Shown here: piece after piece, positions 36,440 through 44,584 of the stretch
How positions within the stretch are numbered: the first letter of the stretch is position 1
Layout: each line of letters opens with the position of its first letter
DNA from: Chrysomallon squamiferum
Taxonomy: Eukaryota; Animalia; Mollusca
DNA length: 64,000 bases
Assembly: GCA_012295275.1 (NCBI GenBank)
Contig: CM022671.1
Location: 20,460,001-20,524,000, forward strand
Direction: 5' to 3'
Translations under genes and position numbers: made by a program
Notes under the pieces: model-generated
Database searches by the model: none
What the model was told of the DNA's origin: nothing
What the model saw: only the letters and a program-made list of their open reading frames with translations

Positions 36440-36735
36440 TTAATCACTGTCACTGTCAAAAGTCTTCTTTTTGCCACTTCCGCCAAATGTTCCTGAAAGA
36501 AAATATTTTTTTTTTTTGAGTTCATGTAGTAATCACATTAAAATGAGTTAGGATGAAGTTGAAAAACTAAATATCCAATTTATAAAGCAGAAGTTCAATT
36601 AAATGTTTAAATTTATCCACAAAGAAATTTTTAAAATTTAAACTTCACATACCACCTCCACCACCTCGACTACCGCCACGTCCTCGTCCTCCACGACCAC
36701 CTCGGAATCCACCACCACCACCACCACCACCACCT

Positions 36736-36773
<38 letters not shown>

Positions 36774-38910
36774 CATGAATTACAAAATACATAAATACAT
36801 TCTATTCTAACTTTTAAACAGCATTATAATTTGAATTCCACTTATCTCTCTTAAAAATTATAATCAATCATAAAATGTAACCGGACACAAAAATAAGTCT
36901 GCATAAATCTGTTCTGTAAATTGTTATGTACGTTCCATTAACTATGAATAACACTACAATAGATGTCATCCAACTCTCAGGAACCAAAATGGAACATTGT
37001 CAGAACCAGAGGAACCAGTACGGCTCCAACCAGAAAATCTTGTGTTCCATTAACTGTTGTACCACAGACGTAACACTGATGTCTCATGACGAGGTCAGCT
37101 GACTGGTCTGTGGAGGAACATTTAAATTTTCTGCATCCTGGGCCATGTTATCAAGATGCGTGAAGTTATATTCGGATTTCTGATATGCTGCTATAAAAAC
37201 TGTTTAATATTCAAATTAATTTTAATATTGGTAAGAAACATTTCAATTTTAATATATTTACCTGTTATTATCATTCAATTGCTGGAAGTTCGTAATAGTA
37301 AAATTTTAAGGAATAGATATCAAAGTACACAATGTTTTTAATGACATTCTGCCACATGAGGTTTACATTTAAACTTTACTTACCGTTGTATACTATCAAA
37401 TTTTAATCTTGTCATGCTCAGATATGGCAAAGCATCTTCAATATTTTATCAGAGACTCTAGTCCAGATGTTTCATCATAGCATGACAGTTTTAAACCAGG
37501 CAATTTTCCTATTATATCAACTTACAAATAGTACTACAAATAATGCAAGCTTAAAAATATTTTAAATACGTACGACCAAAACCGCTGCCACCACCACCTC
37601 CTCCCCCACCGGAACGCTCAGCAGCAAAATCAAGGAATACTTGACGTCCATCTACCTCCTGACCTTTCATACGGTCAAAAGCTGATGCAGCTTCTTCAGG
37701 AGAGTTGAATTCAACAAAGCCAAATCTAAAGAGATACATTTTCATTTTAAAATTAGAAATCATCAGTATACTGAACATACTACACAAAATCACTTGAAAA
37801 CTGGAAAGGTAATTATGAATCAAACTGCCCAAATTAATAAAAAAAACAAAAACCCCAAAACAAACGTATAAATGCTTACCCTTTGCTCCTACCAGTGTCC
37901 CTGTCTGTTGCTATACGAGCTGAGACAGCCCCTTCAAATTGCTTCTGTAGGTATCCATCTCTAGTCTTGTAGCTCAGATTCCTCACAAACAAAACTTTGG
38001 ATTCACCACGTACTGAAATGGAAATTTTCACTTGTTTGGTCAGTTCAATATATAAAGTATGAAGATTCATTATTTTCCTACCAGAAACAAAACCAAATCG
38101 AGAATTGCAAATATAGTCAACACTAATGTATCAAGTATGTTCTTGCATTTTAAGACGGGTTGGTTTTAATATTTTTTTTGCTTAATTTTACTTATTCACC
38201 TCCTGCAGATCCTCCTCCACCTCCACCTCGGCCCCCACCTCCTCTACCACCGCCACGACCACCACCACGTCCTCTTGGAGACTTGGAGTCACGTTTGGCT
38301 GCACGGTCAAGGAATAATGATCTGCCTTCTAGCTCTGCTCCTTGTCTCTCATTCAACATTTCATCAACTTTAGATGAACTATCAAACACAAGGTAAGCAA
38401 ATCTGAAACAAAATGAAAATGTTTTTGCACAAGTTCCTGTGAAATATGACCAGTCATTTTAAAAATTAAAATTACACTAGAAACCCTTTCAAAACAGAAG
38501 AGATCAATAAATCTTGAGTTTCATCATTTATGCATTTATTTATGTATTAAAACTTACCCTTTATGTCCACCTTCTGCACTTTCGGGCAATCTAACACTGA
38601 CAGCATCTTCAAAGAACTCATTCAGCATTTCTTTGGTAACATTTTCAGCCAAATTTTTCACAAACAAGGTTTTATCATCTTCATTATCTGAAAGCCAATA
38701 AGCAAATTCAGTACTATTCCAAATCGGGGGGCAATACAGCAGCTGTATTCCAAGTAATATTATACATGTTAAACCCAGATAATACATTTTCTTTTAAATT
38801 ACAACTTAAATATTTGGTAGTTTAAATCTATCCTTATGTTTGTAATAAAAATGAAATGCAGTTAATCTGTTTTGTATTTTATACAAATTATTTTTCCTCA
38901 GGAGAAGAAA

Positions 38911-38942
<32 letters not shown>

Positions 38943-41900
38943 AAATGGTAAATATGAAAGAATGCCCATCTATGCAAATTACACTAAAATGTACTTACCA
39001 TCACCACCACCACCACCAACTGTCTGTTGGGTAGGAGTTACAGGTGTTGGATTTTGACTTCTTTCTTTAGCTTTTTCTATTTTAATAGGCTTATCTTGAA
39101 AATCTGTACCATTTAAGGCTAAAACTTTGTCCAAATCATTGGGATCAGCCAAATCAGCATATGCAAATCTGAAAATAAAACCAGAGGTACAGGATGGAGA
39201 AAATCAGAGAAATGCCTAACATTGTGTATTCCCAAACAGTTCTATTTAATTTTCTACCACAATGTGATTCTTTTAACAAACTTCCTATGTTAACTATGGT
39301 TAAATACTTACTGTTTGTAATCAATTTTTCTTATTTCAGTTACTTCAATTCCTTGTTTCTTAAAAAACTTTTCCAACTTCTTTTTTTCCAGAGTCTTGTC
39401 CAGTCCACCAATAAATACAGTTACTGAAAAAATGTCCATAATTAAGTATTGTGTTTTGTGACATTTAAAAAGAAATATACATTTTTAAATGCTTTTTGAT
39501 GCACGTAAAGTATACACACCTTTTTCATCACTTCCATTTTTAGTTTGGGCCTTTTTGTCATCTCCTTCCTCGGCTGAAAAAAAAATTAAAAATTAAAAAC
39601 TATATACACAAATATAAAATTTATATGTACTGACCAATATTCCTTGCAATTTGTTTCACTTAAAATGGTAGCAACCAAACATCTACAGAACAGCAACATT
39701 ATAATCACCTATGTGTTACACCAGCATAGATTTTATTGTAGTTGTTTTAATGGAAAATTTTCCATTAAAACACAAGGGGACACTAGGCAAAAAATGAAAA
39801 ATGTTGAACAATATTGTTTTTTAATTTTTGACATGAATTCAGAATGTGAACATATAAAATTTATTTTTCAGATAACATTTCAGATTATTTCGCAAAAAGG
39901 AAGTGCATGTACATATGGGATTGTTTCCATCAAGTTTCAATTCTGTAACGAGTAATATGCATTTTTCATTTTTGCCCCCTTAATGAGTCAGAGGAGAATA
40001 CTCAGTTTGACTAATACCACGTATTATAACCAGAAGAATTGAATTCGATTCATGGGAAGAAGCATCATACAAAATCATTTGTTATCTTCTGATTGATGTG
40101 ACTACTACTACACGTGATTTAGGCTATTAATAATTTCAGTTTTATCTTGCAACAATAGACTGACATTGAAATGTTAATGAAATGACTCATTTTCAAATGG
40201 ATAACACACCATCAGAATCCTCATCTGAATCCTCTTCAGATTCATCAGAATCTTCATCTACTTCCATTTTATTTTTCGCCTCATTTACCAGTGGTGCTCC
40301 CTTGCCTTTCTTCACAGGCTTTGGAGGTTCCTCTGTGCAAAGAAATGCATAGTCAAGTCAGCTGAAAGAGCTGGGACAGCTTGACCAAAAAAAATCTAGT
40401 TTTTAACTACAATTACTTTTAAATTATTCAGTCTTGTAGTTTACTGAAGGAAAAACTTTTCAAAATTTACCATCTGATTCTTCTTCATCCTCATCATCCG
40501 ATTCATCTTCATCTTCATCACTTTCTGCAGATTTACCTTTAGCCTTTGTAGGTGTTTTTGCCTTTTTGTCAGGTGTAGGAGCTATAAAAATTAACAAGGT
40601 AAATTTATGAACTGGTGCTCAGATATAAAAGTCAAACTAATATTTCTGACTTTACACTGACAAAATCAATATATACATTTCATTTCCAAGTGCAAAAATG
40701 GACATTTAATATTGTGAAGGGAATGAACAGTGTCAGACACTATAGACATTACCTGCAGGTTCATCAGAAGAATCTTCATCTTCATCACTGCTTTCAGGTT
40801 CTGCTGCTTTTGCCTTAGTTGGTTTGGGTGTCTGCTGCTTTGTCACTTTAGCCTTTTTGTCCTTTTTTGCAGATTTTGGTGCTGAAGAAAAATTGGAAAT
40901 GATTCATTTAAAACTTATTTTTATTTTGTCAATTTCACTTGAATGCCAAATTATAAAGTGCTGGTTAAATTACCTGGTGGCTCTTCAGATGAATCAGATT
41001 CGTCATCACTCTCTCTCTTGGTGGCCTTGGCCTTGGCCTTTGTCTGAACAGGGGTCATCTTGGCATGTTTGGCAGCTTTAGGAGCTATTAAAATTTTAAA
41101 TTAAGAACAAAATATAAACAGAAGCTAATTCAAGCTGGTCATAATACTTTTGAAAGGTTGACTTTTCAAGCATATTCTAAAATGGTTGTTGATTATTTTT
41201 AATTGCTATTAAGACAAAAGAAATAATGAACACATTATTTCCAGATGTTCACAGCAAAGGGTAACCGTATTACTTAAAATGTGTGACTGGTTATTACAAA
41301 TGTACAAATTTTAACAGAAAGTGTTAATTTCATAATTCCACAGACAAGGTACTATTTGTTTTTACAAACAAATTACCAGGTGTCTCATCAGAAGATTCAG
41401 AATCTTCCTCCTCACTACTGTCTGCCTTTGCTGGTTTAGACTTGGTCTTTTTTCCAGTGACTGGAGTTTCCAACTTTGATTTCTTTTGGGCTTTACCCGC
41501 CTTTTTTGCAGATTTAGGTGCTGTAGGTTAGAAATGCTAAGTGCAATTTTAAATTACCTAAATCAGTTTTTGGGTATTAAACTTTCCTACATTTTTCATT
41601 CTACTGTTAACATTCACCAATGTATTTATAAATAAATCAAAAAAAATATCAAGTCTCACTGAATGAACCAAAATATTTTTTTTATTATATAATTTATGGC
41701 ATTTCTATCCTGTAATAACATCTCAGTCTGATAAAATGTTTACAGAACTATAAATTTTAAAATAATTTATGTCAGATGAACTATTTGTCTTAAATATGGC
41801 AGATCAAATCATGAGTAAGAAAATACCACCAATCTTCAGAACAAAGATGTCCAACATACTTTTAATTTCTTGTTTTGCTTTATTTTTGCCAGAAGGTGAA

Positions 41901-44584
41901 ATCTTAGCCACTTTAGCAGGAACATCTTCTGTAAAAGTAAGTAGACTATTGTAAGGATACAGCTTATATATTAACTAGGCTGTTTGCTGCATACCACATT
42001 TAAATACCCTTTACAATAAATAAGGCTAAAGACAATTTAAAATTAAGTTCTGTCTCAGTCAAATGCCTCGATTGTCTTCAACTGCACCAGGCCAATTAAG
42101 ACTCGTCATCGCTCATCACAGACATGAACAAACAAAAATTGAAAACAAGACATTTTATATGTATAAATTCCCTTTTTATAGAATTTTCAAATTGCCTAAC
42201 AAAATAAAAAAATTAACATGCATCCTAACACTTGAATATTCTGTGAATAATTATGGGCCAACTATTCATGCTATACAAACAAGTATAAAGGGATAAATCA
42301 TTTGCTGAACTGCCATACACTTGGAACTTAATGCTGTTAAAAATTTGAAAGCTTCAACAGTTTTCAAGCAACAGAGATATTGACACTGTACAGTTTTAGG
42401 AGTTTTGCACAAAAATCTACAAACAATTAAAAATATATATAAAAAAAAAAAAAGGCTGCAAAAATGTTTGAAAACTGAACATGAAATATGAACTGAATTT
42501 ATATTTGAACTTGGATCCTATTGTGTCCTTGTATTACAAAATCAAACATTTCAAATAACAGATCCCAAAGATAAACAAAGAAAACCCCTGTACAACTATT
42601 AATAATGACAATGTAGCAGTCCAGTCTCAGTCAAATGCCTCGATTGTCTTCAAATAGGACATGTGGCCCAATTAAGACTCGTCATCGCTCATCACCGACC
42701 TGAACTGCCACAAGCAGATCACAAGTTGTTTAAAATTAATATATTCATTATCAAATATTTCTAGAAACATTCTGTCAAATCTGATTTTGTCAGTTCTATC
42801 CAATCAAATCAATACAAGGTGTTCAGTTACCTTCTGATGATGAATCTTCACTGTCATCACTGCTTGCTTTGCGCTTTGGAGTAGTCTTCACCACTGGCTT
42901 TTTCTGAACAATTTCTTCCTAGTAGTAGTATTATAAATGCATTAAAATATAAAATTATAAAAATGTGGCCAACAAGGATTATGTAATTCTAAAATTAGAA
43001 ATTCAGATTTAAAGAAAAAAGGGTAATCATTAGAGTTACCTCAGCACTGCTATCATCCATGCTTTCCTCAGACCCAGAATCTTGGGCTGGAACATCTTTC
43101 TTCGACTTTTTCAAATTAACCCCATTTGCAACCTGTGAAATTGAGAAATATGTTTTTGATTATTAGTTTTCAGTGAATATAATATATTTAAAAAAAAATG
43201 TGTTTACACATTTACCCAAGTACTGTGAATGCTTGTACAAAAAAGTCAACCAAGTACTCCAATTTTCAGTGGAGGCAACTACTAAATACACTGTCAAGAA
43301 ATCACAAAGACATGTTAATGTCTTTCGTGTATGAATGGGATTTATGAAAAACCATGTAGGTTTTGATCACTTGTGAAATGTATGCCCAATAAAAGCAACA
43401 GCAAATCAAGTTCTAGTATTATGATTTATGGACTAGTACAAACTGTTAGAAGTAAAAAGCATTTTTTGCATCAGAGACCAGATGTCTTTTTGTAATGAAA
43501 AAATCCGTTGGAACATTTTCACCAACATTCTAGATATATTAGCACTCAAATAAAAAAACTGAATCTTCAGTACATAAAAAAAAAAAGCAATGCAGTATTT
43601 AAGAGATCTCATCCACCACTAATATTACATTAAACACTTTACTATACCTTAAATCAACACAATCTTTAATACTGAATCTATATTAAAAAGTATTGAATAC
43701 GACTTTAAACTCACCTGTTGCATACATGTAACATAAGGTGCTAGTTGCTTTAAGGTTACCCAAAGCCTGCTCTGGTCGGCAGAGGCAGGCAAGCATGGAT
43801 TTCAATCCTCTGACTGAATGGAGGATTTTGCAAGTAGCCCCTGAACCGACAGAGGCTAATAAAAGGTACCATATTTACATTTCCCCTGATCGGCAGGGTT
43901 GTTAAAGGTGACTGTACAAAACCCCTGAACGGCAGGGGTTTAGTTTCAAACAAGGATATAGCAAGAATTTATGCTGTGACCAACACTGCAATTTTATCTC
44001 TGAATTCTTGTCACCATCATCAATGCACTGTGCAAGCCATCCAAATATTCATGTAAACCTCTGAACATCCAATAATTACAAAATGGACGATGCAAAATAA
44101 ATTCAACTGGAAGGTTTCCTGAATCCGGCATCATCTTTATCAACGGACATTTAGCAAATTAAACAACATTATCAAACCATGAACTTCACCATTGGACGAT
44201 ATTTTTAAAGAAAAAAGTAATTCTATAAATGGGCGGGAAATAAGCTTGAGAATGCAGACATATATCTGCAATCAAACATTATGAACATACACGTGGTGAT
44301 TAACCACGTGGTTAATTCAATGTTCACGATTTTAAATCCATTCAGGTAATTCAAATACTTATGAAACAAATATTCATAACTACTCATAAAACAAAATTAC
44401 ATAATAAACCTGAAATTAAATACATAAAATAATTTTGTTTTTAAATTCAATGATAATCATACTGCATGGTCAAATCCACGTGCTCGGACAAAATCCGGGA
44501 GCCATCTTGTTTAAAAGCAGATTTCAAAATGAATAAATTAAGTTCTTTATATACCTTAGACTTCTTTGCAACCTTTTTCGTCAT
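36440..44584 (-). CDS. NCL: Nucleolin-like protein (acidic/basic N-terminus, 3 RRMs, RGG/GAR tail), 18 exons
   Basis: Exons (minus): 44555-44584, 43040-43132, 42831-42918, 41860-41928, 41377-41520, 40974-41084, 40753-40881, 40471-40581, 40210-40332, 39520-39573, 39312-39423, 38999-39168, 38558-38687, 38200-38402, 37880-38012, 37574-37725, 36653-36733, 36440-36492. Alternating K/TP-rich and D/E/S-rich blocks; RNP2 motifs VFIGGL, LFVKNL, LFVRNL; RNP1 KGFAYL and KGFGFVEF; RGG boxes; C-terminal GKKKTFD like nucleolin/Nsr1. Confidence 0.93.
36924..37114 (-). ncRNA. SNORA74: Box H/ACA snoRNA U19 (SNORA74/snR191-like)
   Basis: 5' hairpin CCACAGAC/GTCTGTGG with pocket GTCA...GTTAC; H box ACAACA; 3' hairpin GTTCCATT/AATGGAAC with pocket GAGAGT...TAGTT; ACA box 15 nt from the pocket. 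Both pockets complement 28S helix 69 (GUAACUAUGACUCUC). Intronic in NCL. Confidence 0.8.
37410..37487 (-). ncRNA. SNORD52: Box C/D snoRNA, U52/SNORD52-like (snR78-like)
   Basis: 9-bp terminal stem TGTCATGCT/AGCATGACA; C box ATGATGA; D' CTGA; C' TGAAGA; D CTGA. The D' guide GACTAGAGTC complements 28S GACUCUAGUC. Confidence 0.85.
39982..40080 (-). ncRNA. Weak candidate orphan box C/D snoRNA
   Basis: ATGATGC ... CTGA with an AATGA/TCATT flanking stem. No rRNA target recognised. Confidence 0.25.
41770..41843 (-). ncRNA. Candidate box C/D snoRNA (U32/U51, snR39/59-like target)
   Basis: C-like TGAAGA, D'-like CTTA, C'-like ATGATT, D CTGA. The D guide ATAGTTCAT complements 28S GUGAACUAU. Short duplex, non-canonical C box, and very close to the donor. 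Confidence 0.45.
42051..42124 (-). ncRNA. SNORD15: Box C/D snoRNA U15/SNORD15-like, copy A
   Basis: Stem TGTCT/AGACA; C box GTGATGA; guide GATGACGAG before a D'-like CTTA; guide CGAGGCATTTG before D box CTGA. Both guides complement 28S CAAAUGCCUCGUCAUC. Confidence 0.88.
42624..42699 (-). ncRNA. SNORD15: Box C/D snoRNA U15/SNORD15-like, copy B
   Basis: Boxes and both guides identical to copy A, with a different internal spacer. Extended flanking stem 42616-42708. Confidence 0.88.
43765..43941 (-). promoter_or_regulatory. Array of five RNA hairpins, four with a shared apex motif, in NCL intron 1
   Basis: Hairpins at 43919-43941, 43884-43898, 43835-43858 and 43765-43790 share CUG-loop-CAG. A fifth hairpin at 43804-43827 has a different loop. 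Compensatory and G-U changes in the stems. Confidence 0.75.

What the first reader, a model, noticed from the sequence alone, without database searches (positions are those of the whole stretch)
43715..43941. Covarying hairpin array inside a candidate poison exon of nucleolin: possible autoregulatory RNA switch
Seen: on the nucleolin pre-mRNA strand four hairpins share one apex: AAACCCCUG-CCGUU-CAGGGGUUU, CCCUG-CCGAU-CAGGG, UAGCCUCUG-UCGGUU-CAGGGGCUA and GCCUGCCUCUG-CCGAC-CAGAGCAGGC. One stem position varies C-G, U-G, U-A between copies, and the U-G pair only works on the minus strand. The block is a GC-rich island in an AT-rich intron. A consensus donor CAG|GTGAGT follows at 43715/43714. The three candidate acceptors I checked (exon starts 44060, 43924 inside the first hairpin, 43911) each give an in-frame stop after the phase-0 exon 1. 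Known: vertebrate nucleolin RRMs bind stem-loops with a (U/G)CCCG(A/G) loop (the NRE), and many RNA-binding proteins autoregulate through poison exons and NMD. Inference: these GCCGA-type loops are NRE-like sites through which nucleolin controls inclusion of its own stop exon. This could also uncouple snoRNA output from protein output.
Basis: partly seen in the sequence, partly recalled or inferred. Interest (0 to 1): 0.88.

Follow-up and report, generated by a model that had tools for sequence, protein, structure and literature searches.

The report
Hairpin array in mollusc nucleolin intron
The first intron of a mollusc nucleolin gene carries four look-alike hairpins just before an unusually strong spare splice site, a layout that likely lets the cell destroy surplus nucleolin message, although no RNA using that site was seen and the loops do not match the known nucleolin binding word.

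Summary
Intron 1 of a three-RRM invertebrate nucleolin carries four hairpins with the consensus CYCUG-YCG(N2-3)-CAGRG (43941-43765). A donor CAG|GTGAGT at 43715/43714 follows, stronger than exon 1's own. Both exceed chance: 2 of 2000 shuffles gave four shared apices, the copy-specific outer stems give p about 0.009, and about 0.02 such donors are expected in the intron.

Contigs of 4 RNA runs show only the normal exon 1-2 joint, and three cross the donor unspliced. 0 of 4 loops match (U/G)CCCG(A/G), and the RRM1-2 linker is much longer than in vertebrates. Extending exon 1 to the spare donor, or using an acceptor at 44409, fits better; all seven routes tested give an early stop. Hairpins 2 and 3 can also pair with each other (2.2 kcal/mol lower).

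Weak support: fewer variants upstream of the donor, and 2 of 4 invertebrate nucleolin transcript contigs have non-coding sequence in place of exon 1. No orthologous intron could be obtained. Most likely this is an unproductive-splicing feedback element, a new variant of a known kind, unproven.

The parts
44555..44584 (-). Coding part of nucleolin exon 1 (10 codons, phase 0); donor AAG|GTATAT matches the consensus at 6 of 9 positions
   Evidence: joint to exon 2 in 4 of 4 RNA runs
44409..44429 (-). Best cryptic acceptor upstream of the spare donor (exon would start at 44409, leaving a 145-nt intron; stop at 44382); use not seen
43919..43941 (-). Hairpin 1: 9-bp stem, loop CCGUU
   Evidence: apex pair probability 0.98-1.0
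43884..43898 (-). Hairpin 2: 5-bp stem, loop CCGAU; predicted alternative pairing with hairpin 3
43835..43858 (-). Hairpin 3: 9-bp stem with one U-G pair, loop UCGGUU (UCGG is complementary to the CCGA of loops 2 and 4)
43804..43827 (-). Fifth hairpin: 7-bp stem, 10-nt loop of a different sequence
43765..43790 (-). Hairpin 4: 10-bp stem with one bulge, loop CCGAC
43709..43717 (-). Spare donor CAG|GTGAGT (8 of 9 consensus matches); an ATG at 43723 just before it is in frame with exon 2; use not seen in RNA contigs
43040..43132 (-). Nucleolin exon 2, the acceptor partner of both donors
36443..44584 (-). Host gene: nucleolin, 18 coding exons, 656 aa predicted, acidic/basic N-terminus, three RRMs, GAR tail

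Best explanation
The block is likely an RNA control element: four short hairpins sit between the weak exon 1 donor and a stronger spare donor, and a protein that binds their CG-containing loops, most likely nucleolin itself, would shift splicing to the spare donor and give a message with an early stop that is predicted to be destroyed by nonsense-mediated decay. Shown: the hairpins, both donors, the stops on every route tested, and normal exon 1-2 splicing as the only joint seen. Predicted: hairpins 2 and 3 can collapse into one duplex 2.2 kcal/mol lower, which hides two of the four loops, so binding could be threshold-like. Inferred: use of the spare donor (by extending exon 1 by 840 nt, or through the acceptor at 44409), the identity of the binder, decay of the product, and continued snoRNA release from downstream introns.
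For: The repeated apex is non-random, and the outer stems differ between copies yet each pairs with itself. That points to selection on pairing rather than plain duplication. The only cryptic MAG|GTRAGT in the gene lies 50 nt downstream; about 0.02 are expected in the intron. It matches the consensus at 8 of 9 positions against 6 of 9 for exon 1's donor. All 7 routes tested give a premature stop. Of 11 variant events in intron 1 in RNA contigs of 3 runs, 9 lie in the 582 nt below the donor, 2 in the 840 nt above and 0 in the block (p=0.007). No other transcript contig in those 3 runs fits the block at 80% likeness. 2 of 4 invertebrate nucleolin transcript contigs that reach the 5' end (L002, L003) carry non-coding, motif-repeating sequence where exon 1 should be. 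For L003 the break falls exactly where its sister L004 has a 30-nt exon 1. Precedent: L10ARE lies between two alternative donors (abstract of PMC4937301). CG is invariant in the four loops.
Against: No joint at 43715 appears in 4 of 4 RNA runs, and contigs of 3 runs cross the donor unspliced. These are contigs of one study that drop rare forms, without NMD block. 0 of 4 loops match the NRE consensus, and the RRM1-2 linker differs from the vertebrate one. No orthologous intron was found among 65 metagenome loci, so conservation is untested. The L002 and L003 leaders show no sequence likeness to the block (p 0.67 and 0.44) and no excess folding (z -0.3 and -0.75). L008 and L009 have odd 5' ends at another place in the gene, so such ends may be pre-mRNA or assembly artefacts. 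With SNPs alone the variant contrast is not significant (p=0.11), nor is zero variants in the block (p=0.15). The plus strand folds nearly as well.
Confidence: 0.4

Rival explanations
1. The splicing module is real, but the hairpins are read by another RNA-binding protein or act by structure alone, so the control is not nucleolin feedback.
For: The loops fail the NRE consensus and the linker differs. The structure and donor evidence does not name the binder.
Against: Known cases of this layout are mostly self-regulation (abstracts of PMC4937301 and PMC2095825). The array lies in the gene of a stem-loop-binding protein, and its loops keep an invariant CG.
Confidence: 0.2
2. The repeats are DNA palindromes (CCCTG-N5-CAGGG) bound by a transcription factor in a promoter-proximal enhancer, and the donor is incidental.
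For: Intron 1 also holds three CACGTG E-boxes, one inside a perfect 18-bp palindrome. Both strands fold almost equally. Low variation covers the whole upstream 840 nt.
Against: Copy-specific outer stems would not need to pair for a DNA-binding site. The spacer is conserved and asymmetric, with all copies in one orientation. A consensus donor nearby is unlikely by chance.
Confidence: 0.15
3. The block is a neutral remnant: a short palindromic unit duplicated locally or left by a decayed mobile element, with stems perfected by template switching.
For: The copies share about 15 nt at 69% mean column identity, and the block is a GC island. No use of the donor was seen. No genome was available to exclude dispersed copies.
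Against: Spacing is irregular (39, 44 and 70 nt) and the spacers are unrelated. There is no other copy in the 64-kb window or in RNA contigs of 3 runs. No variants were seen in the block, though this is weak.
Confidence: 0.15
4. The block is the 5' leader of an alternative first exon that ends at the spare donor and starts a nearly full-length nucleolin (MQQ-VANG...) lacking the basic N-terminal decapeptide.
For: An ATG at 43723 is in frame with exon 2. The L003 leader also ends in an in-frame ATG at the junction. Annotated Haliotis rubra isoforms begin at unusual methionines.
Against: The start context is poor, with an out-of-frame ATG 4 nt upstream. RNA contigs run on unbroken from exon 1. 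The L002 leader has no in-frame ATG.
Confidence: 0.07
5. The block is an unrecognised intron-encoded small RNA (snoRNA or scaRNA type).
For: The gene hosts at least four snoRNA-like elements.
Against: There is no Rfam match at the block even at E<=5, while four other elements score E<=0.0025. No RTGATGA box is present in intron 1, and the hairpins are too short for H/ACA pockets.
Confidence: 0.03

Closest known systems
L10a/RPL-1 autoregulation through L10ARE (PMC4937301, abstract read)
   Same: A ribosome-related RNA-binding protein gene with an intronic element between two alternative 5' splice sites, where the unproductive form goes to NMD.
   Different: L10ARE is a single conserved 39-nt stretch with proven binding. 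Here there are four repeated hairpins, and no use of the donor, binding or conservation has been shown.
NOP56 control by SNORD86 (review PMC11028025, passages read)
   Same: A nucleolar protein and snoRNA host gene, with an intronic RNA of two conformations steering splicing according to protein level.
   Different: The sensor there is a C/D snoRNA. This block has no C/D boxes and no Rfam match; its two conformations are only predicted.
Vertebrate nucleolin recognition element, NRE (passages of PMC12293987; primary papers not held)
   Same: Short stem-loops with C-C-G in the loop, in several copies. CGA, called a possible minimal NRE in that paper, is present in 2 of 4 loops.
   Different: The loops lack one C of (U/G)CCCG(A/G), and the G or U before it is paired. 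Natural NREs lie in pre-rRNA, not in nucleolin's own intron. The protein has 3 RRMs and a longer RRM1-2 linker.
RPS13 intron 1 feedback (PMC2095825, abstract) and AtGRP8 cryptic 5' splice site (PMC2602770, start of abstract in listing)
   Same: [quoted passage not shown]
   Different: Neither abstract mentions a repeated hairpin array; different proteins and lineages.

Membership tests
Nucleolin (host gene) | Acidic/basic N-terminus, tandem RRMs and GAR tail; best hits are nucleolins | tested here: met
   three RRMs, as in the other invertebrate nucleolins aligned
Nucleolin recognition element (NRE) | (U/G)CCCG(A/G) hexamer | tested here: not met
   0 of 4 hairpins; the only match in intron 1 is at 44500, outside the block; consensus
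Nucleolin recognition element (NRE) | Motif single-stranded in a hairpin loop (loop of about 7 nt or more, recalled) | tested here: not met
   loops are 5-6 nt with the preceding U-G paired; opening two pairs would give a 9-nt loop, untested
Nucleolin recognition element (NRE) | Cognate protein with a short, basic RRM1-2 linker (role of the linker recalled) | tested here: not met
   about 30 residues ending in an acidic stretch, against about 13 in human
Nucleolin recognition element (NRE) | Direct binding by RRM1-2 | not testable with these tools
   needs EMSA or CLIP
Poison exon / AS-NMD autoregulation | Alternative splice site that creates a premature stop upstream of a junction | tested here: met
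   7 of 7 routes give a stop, 41-732 nt before the junction to exon 2, with further junctions downstream
Poison exon / AS-NMD autoregulation | Alternative site used in RNA | tested here: inconclusive
   0 of 4 RNA runs show the joint; contigs only, one study, no NMD block
Poison exon / AS-NMD autoregulation | Conservation of the element across species | tested here: inconclusive
   no orthologous intron 1 among 65 loci; L002 and L003 leaders are suggestive but not alike in sequence
Poison exon / AS-NMD autoregulation | Inclusion responds to the level of the encoded protein | not testable with these tools
   needs knock-down or over-expression
snoRNA / known Rfam family | Rfam match or C/D or H/ACA boxes | tested here: not met
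Dispersed repeat / MITE | Further genomic copies | tested here: inconclusive
   none in the window or in RNA contigs of 3 runs; no genome held; run X5 did not lay on the locus itself, so it gives no negative

The most novel reading that the evidence does not exclude
Nucleolin meters its own level through a multi-hairpin, two-state RNA switch in intron 1 that diverts splicing to a decay route. This is an old, widespread feedback whose binding word has changed between lineages (CG-loop hairpins here, GU-rich arrays in other animals and fungi), so each array would reveal the true RNA specificity of that lineage's nucleolin.
Probability: 0.2. Interest if true: 0.75.

Novelty: new variant of a known kind. 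Interest (0 to 1): 0.45.

Why it matters
Nucleolin is an abundant, growth-linked driver of ribosome production. Four literature searches (only the top 20-25 listings of each were seen) showed no paper on nucleolin limiting itself by unproductive splicing. If the element works as proposed, it adds nucleolin to the self-limiting ribosome-assembly genes. It would also give natural binding sites for a three-RRM invertebrate nucleolin, and a route to keep making intronic snoRNAs while protein output is cut. The principle itself is known from L10a, S13 and NOP56.

Tried and rejected
Genome: none is held, so no genome-wide copy count and no look at this animal's pre-rRNA spacer were possible.

Rfam: 0 hits at the gathering threshold in the window, and none at the block at E<=5.

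Orthologous intron: the metagenome scan with a mollusc alignment gave 65 loci, but no animal genomic contig reached intron 1. The prokaryote genome collection gave none. A two-hairpin pattern in viral contigs gave 1 GC-rich match without the array, taken as chance. A scan of all 66 loci held for CTGYCG hairpins with stems of 5 bp or more found 4 single copies and no array.

Run X5 did not lay on the locus and was not used. Contig depth along intron 1 was not used as evidence.

A shared UG-loop-CA apex in the L002 and L003 leaders (4 each; p 0.028 and 0.054) was chosen after looking, and two of L002's come from a tandem duplication, so it is not counted. GTGGG counts upstream of 24 fungal-like loci were 0-3 per stretch, but their orthology to nucleolin was not established, so this tests nothing.

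The primary NRE structure papers were not held, so the loop-size and linker roles are recalled. The bacterial promoter/terminator scan found nothing and is irrelevant here. Intronic polyadenylation was considered: there is one ATTAAA at 43670 and no AATAAA in intron 1, and contigs run through it, so it was not pursued. No supplements were read; NMD target tables in them could list nucleolin.

Full report
Host gene. The block lies in intron 1 (44554-43133, 1422 nt) of a minus-strand gene whose 18 coding exons give a predicted 656-residue protein: acidic/basic N-terminus, three RRMs and a GAR tail. Fourteen of its 17 introns are seen as joints in RNA contigs. Single exons hit nucleolin first among solved structures and named proteins. 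The closest named relatives are mollusc nucleolins. On a tree the protein groups with Haliotis at 88/86 support, below the tool's threshold, so the host is likely a mollusc, probably a gastropod. No whole genome is held.

Observation. GC is 0.47 in the block against 0.30 in the rest of the intron. Four hairpins with one shared apex arose in 2 of 2000 shuffles. The consensus 15-mer matches 3 times in the window at up to two mismatches, all inside the block; the fourth copy has a 6-nt loop. Beyond the 5-bp core, copies 1, 3 and 4 extend by 5, 4 and 5 pairs with different letters, while swapped arms give 0-3 (p=0.009). This is the best sign of selection on pairing. Strand evidence is weak: z is -3.0 on the minus strand and -2.2 on the plus strand.

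A refinement on structure. Hairpins 2 and 3 are near reverse complements, loops included (CCGA/UCGG). The minimum-energy fold pairs them with each other. The four-hairpin form is 2.2 kcal/mol higher and dominates only when pairing is limited to 40 nt or less. The element is therefore predicted to have two states, exposing two or four loops.

Splice signals. The spare donor matches the consensus at 8 of 9 positions; exon 1's donor matches at 6 of 9. MAG|GTRAGT is expected 0.02 times in this intron. One other cryptic 8-of-9 donor lies in intron 16. The site at 44409 scores 9.8 and the true exon 2 acceptor 10.6; the matrix is small and includes the true site. The likelier unproductive forms are thus exon 1 extended by 840 nt, or a 695-nt exon from 44409. 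All 7 routes tested stop early. An ATG just before the donor is in frame with exon 2, in poor context.

RNA evidence. Five public runs hold the gene, four of them RNA runs of one study, all kept as contigs. All 4 show the exon 1-2 joint and none shows a joint at 43715. On the closer lay of 3 RNA runs, contigs cross the donor unspliced at depth 3-7, beside 50-56 for the normal joint. Other introns are covered too, so intron 1 retention is not special. Contigs drop rare forms, so this neither supports nor refutes a decay-bound isoform. Variants in intron 1 number 7 SNPs and 4 indel events (two adjacent rows counted as one): 9 lie below the donor, 2 above and 0 in the block. This gives p=0.007 overall, 0.11 for SNPs alone and 0.15 for the block. 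No foreign contig in the 3 RNA runs fits the block at 80% likeness.

Comparison with other species. The metagenome scan returned 65 loci, none with an animal intron 1. Five transcript-like nucleolin contigs reach the 5' end. L004 and L006 and the vertebrate-type L007 have a normal start. L002 and L003 instead carry about 200 nt of non-coding sequence with repeated UGUGG or GUUGG words. L003 and L004 are sisters (100/99), and L003's leader replaces exactly the 30 coding nt that open L004. That the L002 join is at exon 2 is inferred. These leaders are not alike in sequence to the block and do not fold better than shuffles. L008 and L009 show odd 5' ends elsewhere in the gene, so artefact is possible. 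L005 lacks its 5' end and was left out. Earlier scan notes report G-rich arrays in fungal nucleolin leader introns, and one reports nothing special; these are unchecked leads.

NRE test. The consensus is (U/G)CCCG(A/G) in a stem-loop (passages of PMC12293987). No loop matches: copies 2 and 4 read UGCCGA with U and G paired. CG is invariant, and that paper calls CGA a possible minimal element. The RRM1-2 linker is about 30 residues and ends acidic, against about 13 basic residues in human; its role in NRE binding is recalled, since the primary papers were not held. The loops are therefore not NREs. A changed specificity in a three-RRM nucleolin is not excluded.

Mechanism and rivals. The best reading (0.40) is nucleolin-sensed unproductive splicing at the spare donor. 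The rivals are the same module with another reader (0.20), DNA palindromes in an enhancer (0.15; three E-boxes lie in the same intron), a neutral remnant (0.15), an alternative first exon (0.07) and a small RNA (0.03; no Rfam match).

Known systems. The closest are L10ARE (abstract of PMC4937301), RPS13 (abstract of PMC2095825), NOP56/SNORD86 (passages of PMC11028025) and NMD-sensitive snoRNA host genes (one abstract passage of PMC4233243, in whose main text nucleolin does not occur). Four searches showed no report of nucleolin autoregulation by splicing among the listings seen. No supplements were read.

Verdict. This is a real, non-random RNA-like element next to a strong unused donor. Its function is plausible but unshown. 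New variant of a known kind; interest 0.45.

Noticed in passing
window 37573-36734 (intron 16, minus strand): A weak exon 16 donor (5 of 9) is followed by a C/D snoRNA-like element (37487-37410), two strong cryptic donors (37384 and 37262), then a SNORA74-like H/ACA RNA (37114-36925). The layout recalls NOP56/SNORD86 and may be a second unproductive-splicing site.
   Followed up: partly
window 42700-42622 and 42124-42050 (intron 3): Two copies of a SNOR75/SNORD15-like C/D snoRNA lie in one intron. A similar snoRNA sits in an intron of other animal nucleolin loci, L038 and L041.
   Followed up: partly
window 44316-44299, and CACGTG at 44290, 44305, 44477, 44818: A perfect 18-bp palindrome centred on an E-box, with further E-boxes near the start of the gene; local fold z is -5.5. 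Probably Myc-type sites (recalled for nucleolin genes).
   Followed up: no
window about 40068-40002 (intron 9, minus strand): ATGATG...CTGA about 67 nt apart: a candidate further C/D snoRNA that Rfam did not list.
   Followed up: no
window 39917-39949: A short stretch shared with several unrelated RNA contigs in all 4 runs (loose ends), likely a piece of a dispersed repeat.
   Followed up: no
L002 1-230 and L003 1-201: Non-coding leaders joined to nucleolin coding sequence in two other animals. L002 has a tandem pair of 9-bp hairpins with loops GGUCU and GUUCU; L003 has five GUUGG words.
   Followed up: partly
P0125 and P0040 (Haliotis rubra annotation): Isoform X1 begins with an atypical five residues and X2 at a downstream methionine, which could reflect a non-coding 5' exon or a missing exon 1.
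   Followed up: no
window 43696 region and 43670: A 12-nt deletion allele in one low-depth contig lies just downstream of the spare donor and leaves it intact. An ATTAAA with a GT-rich tail lies 45 nt below the donor.
   Followed up: no
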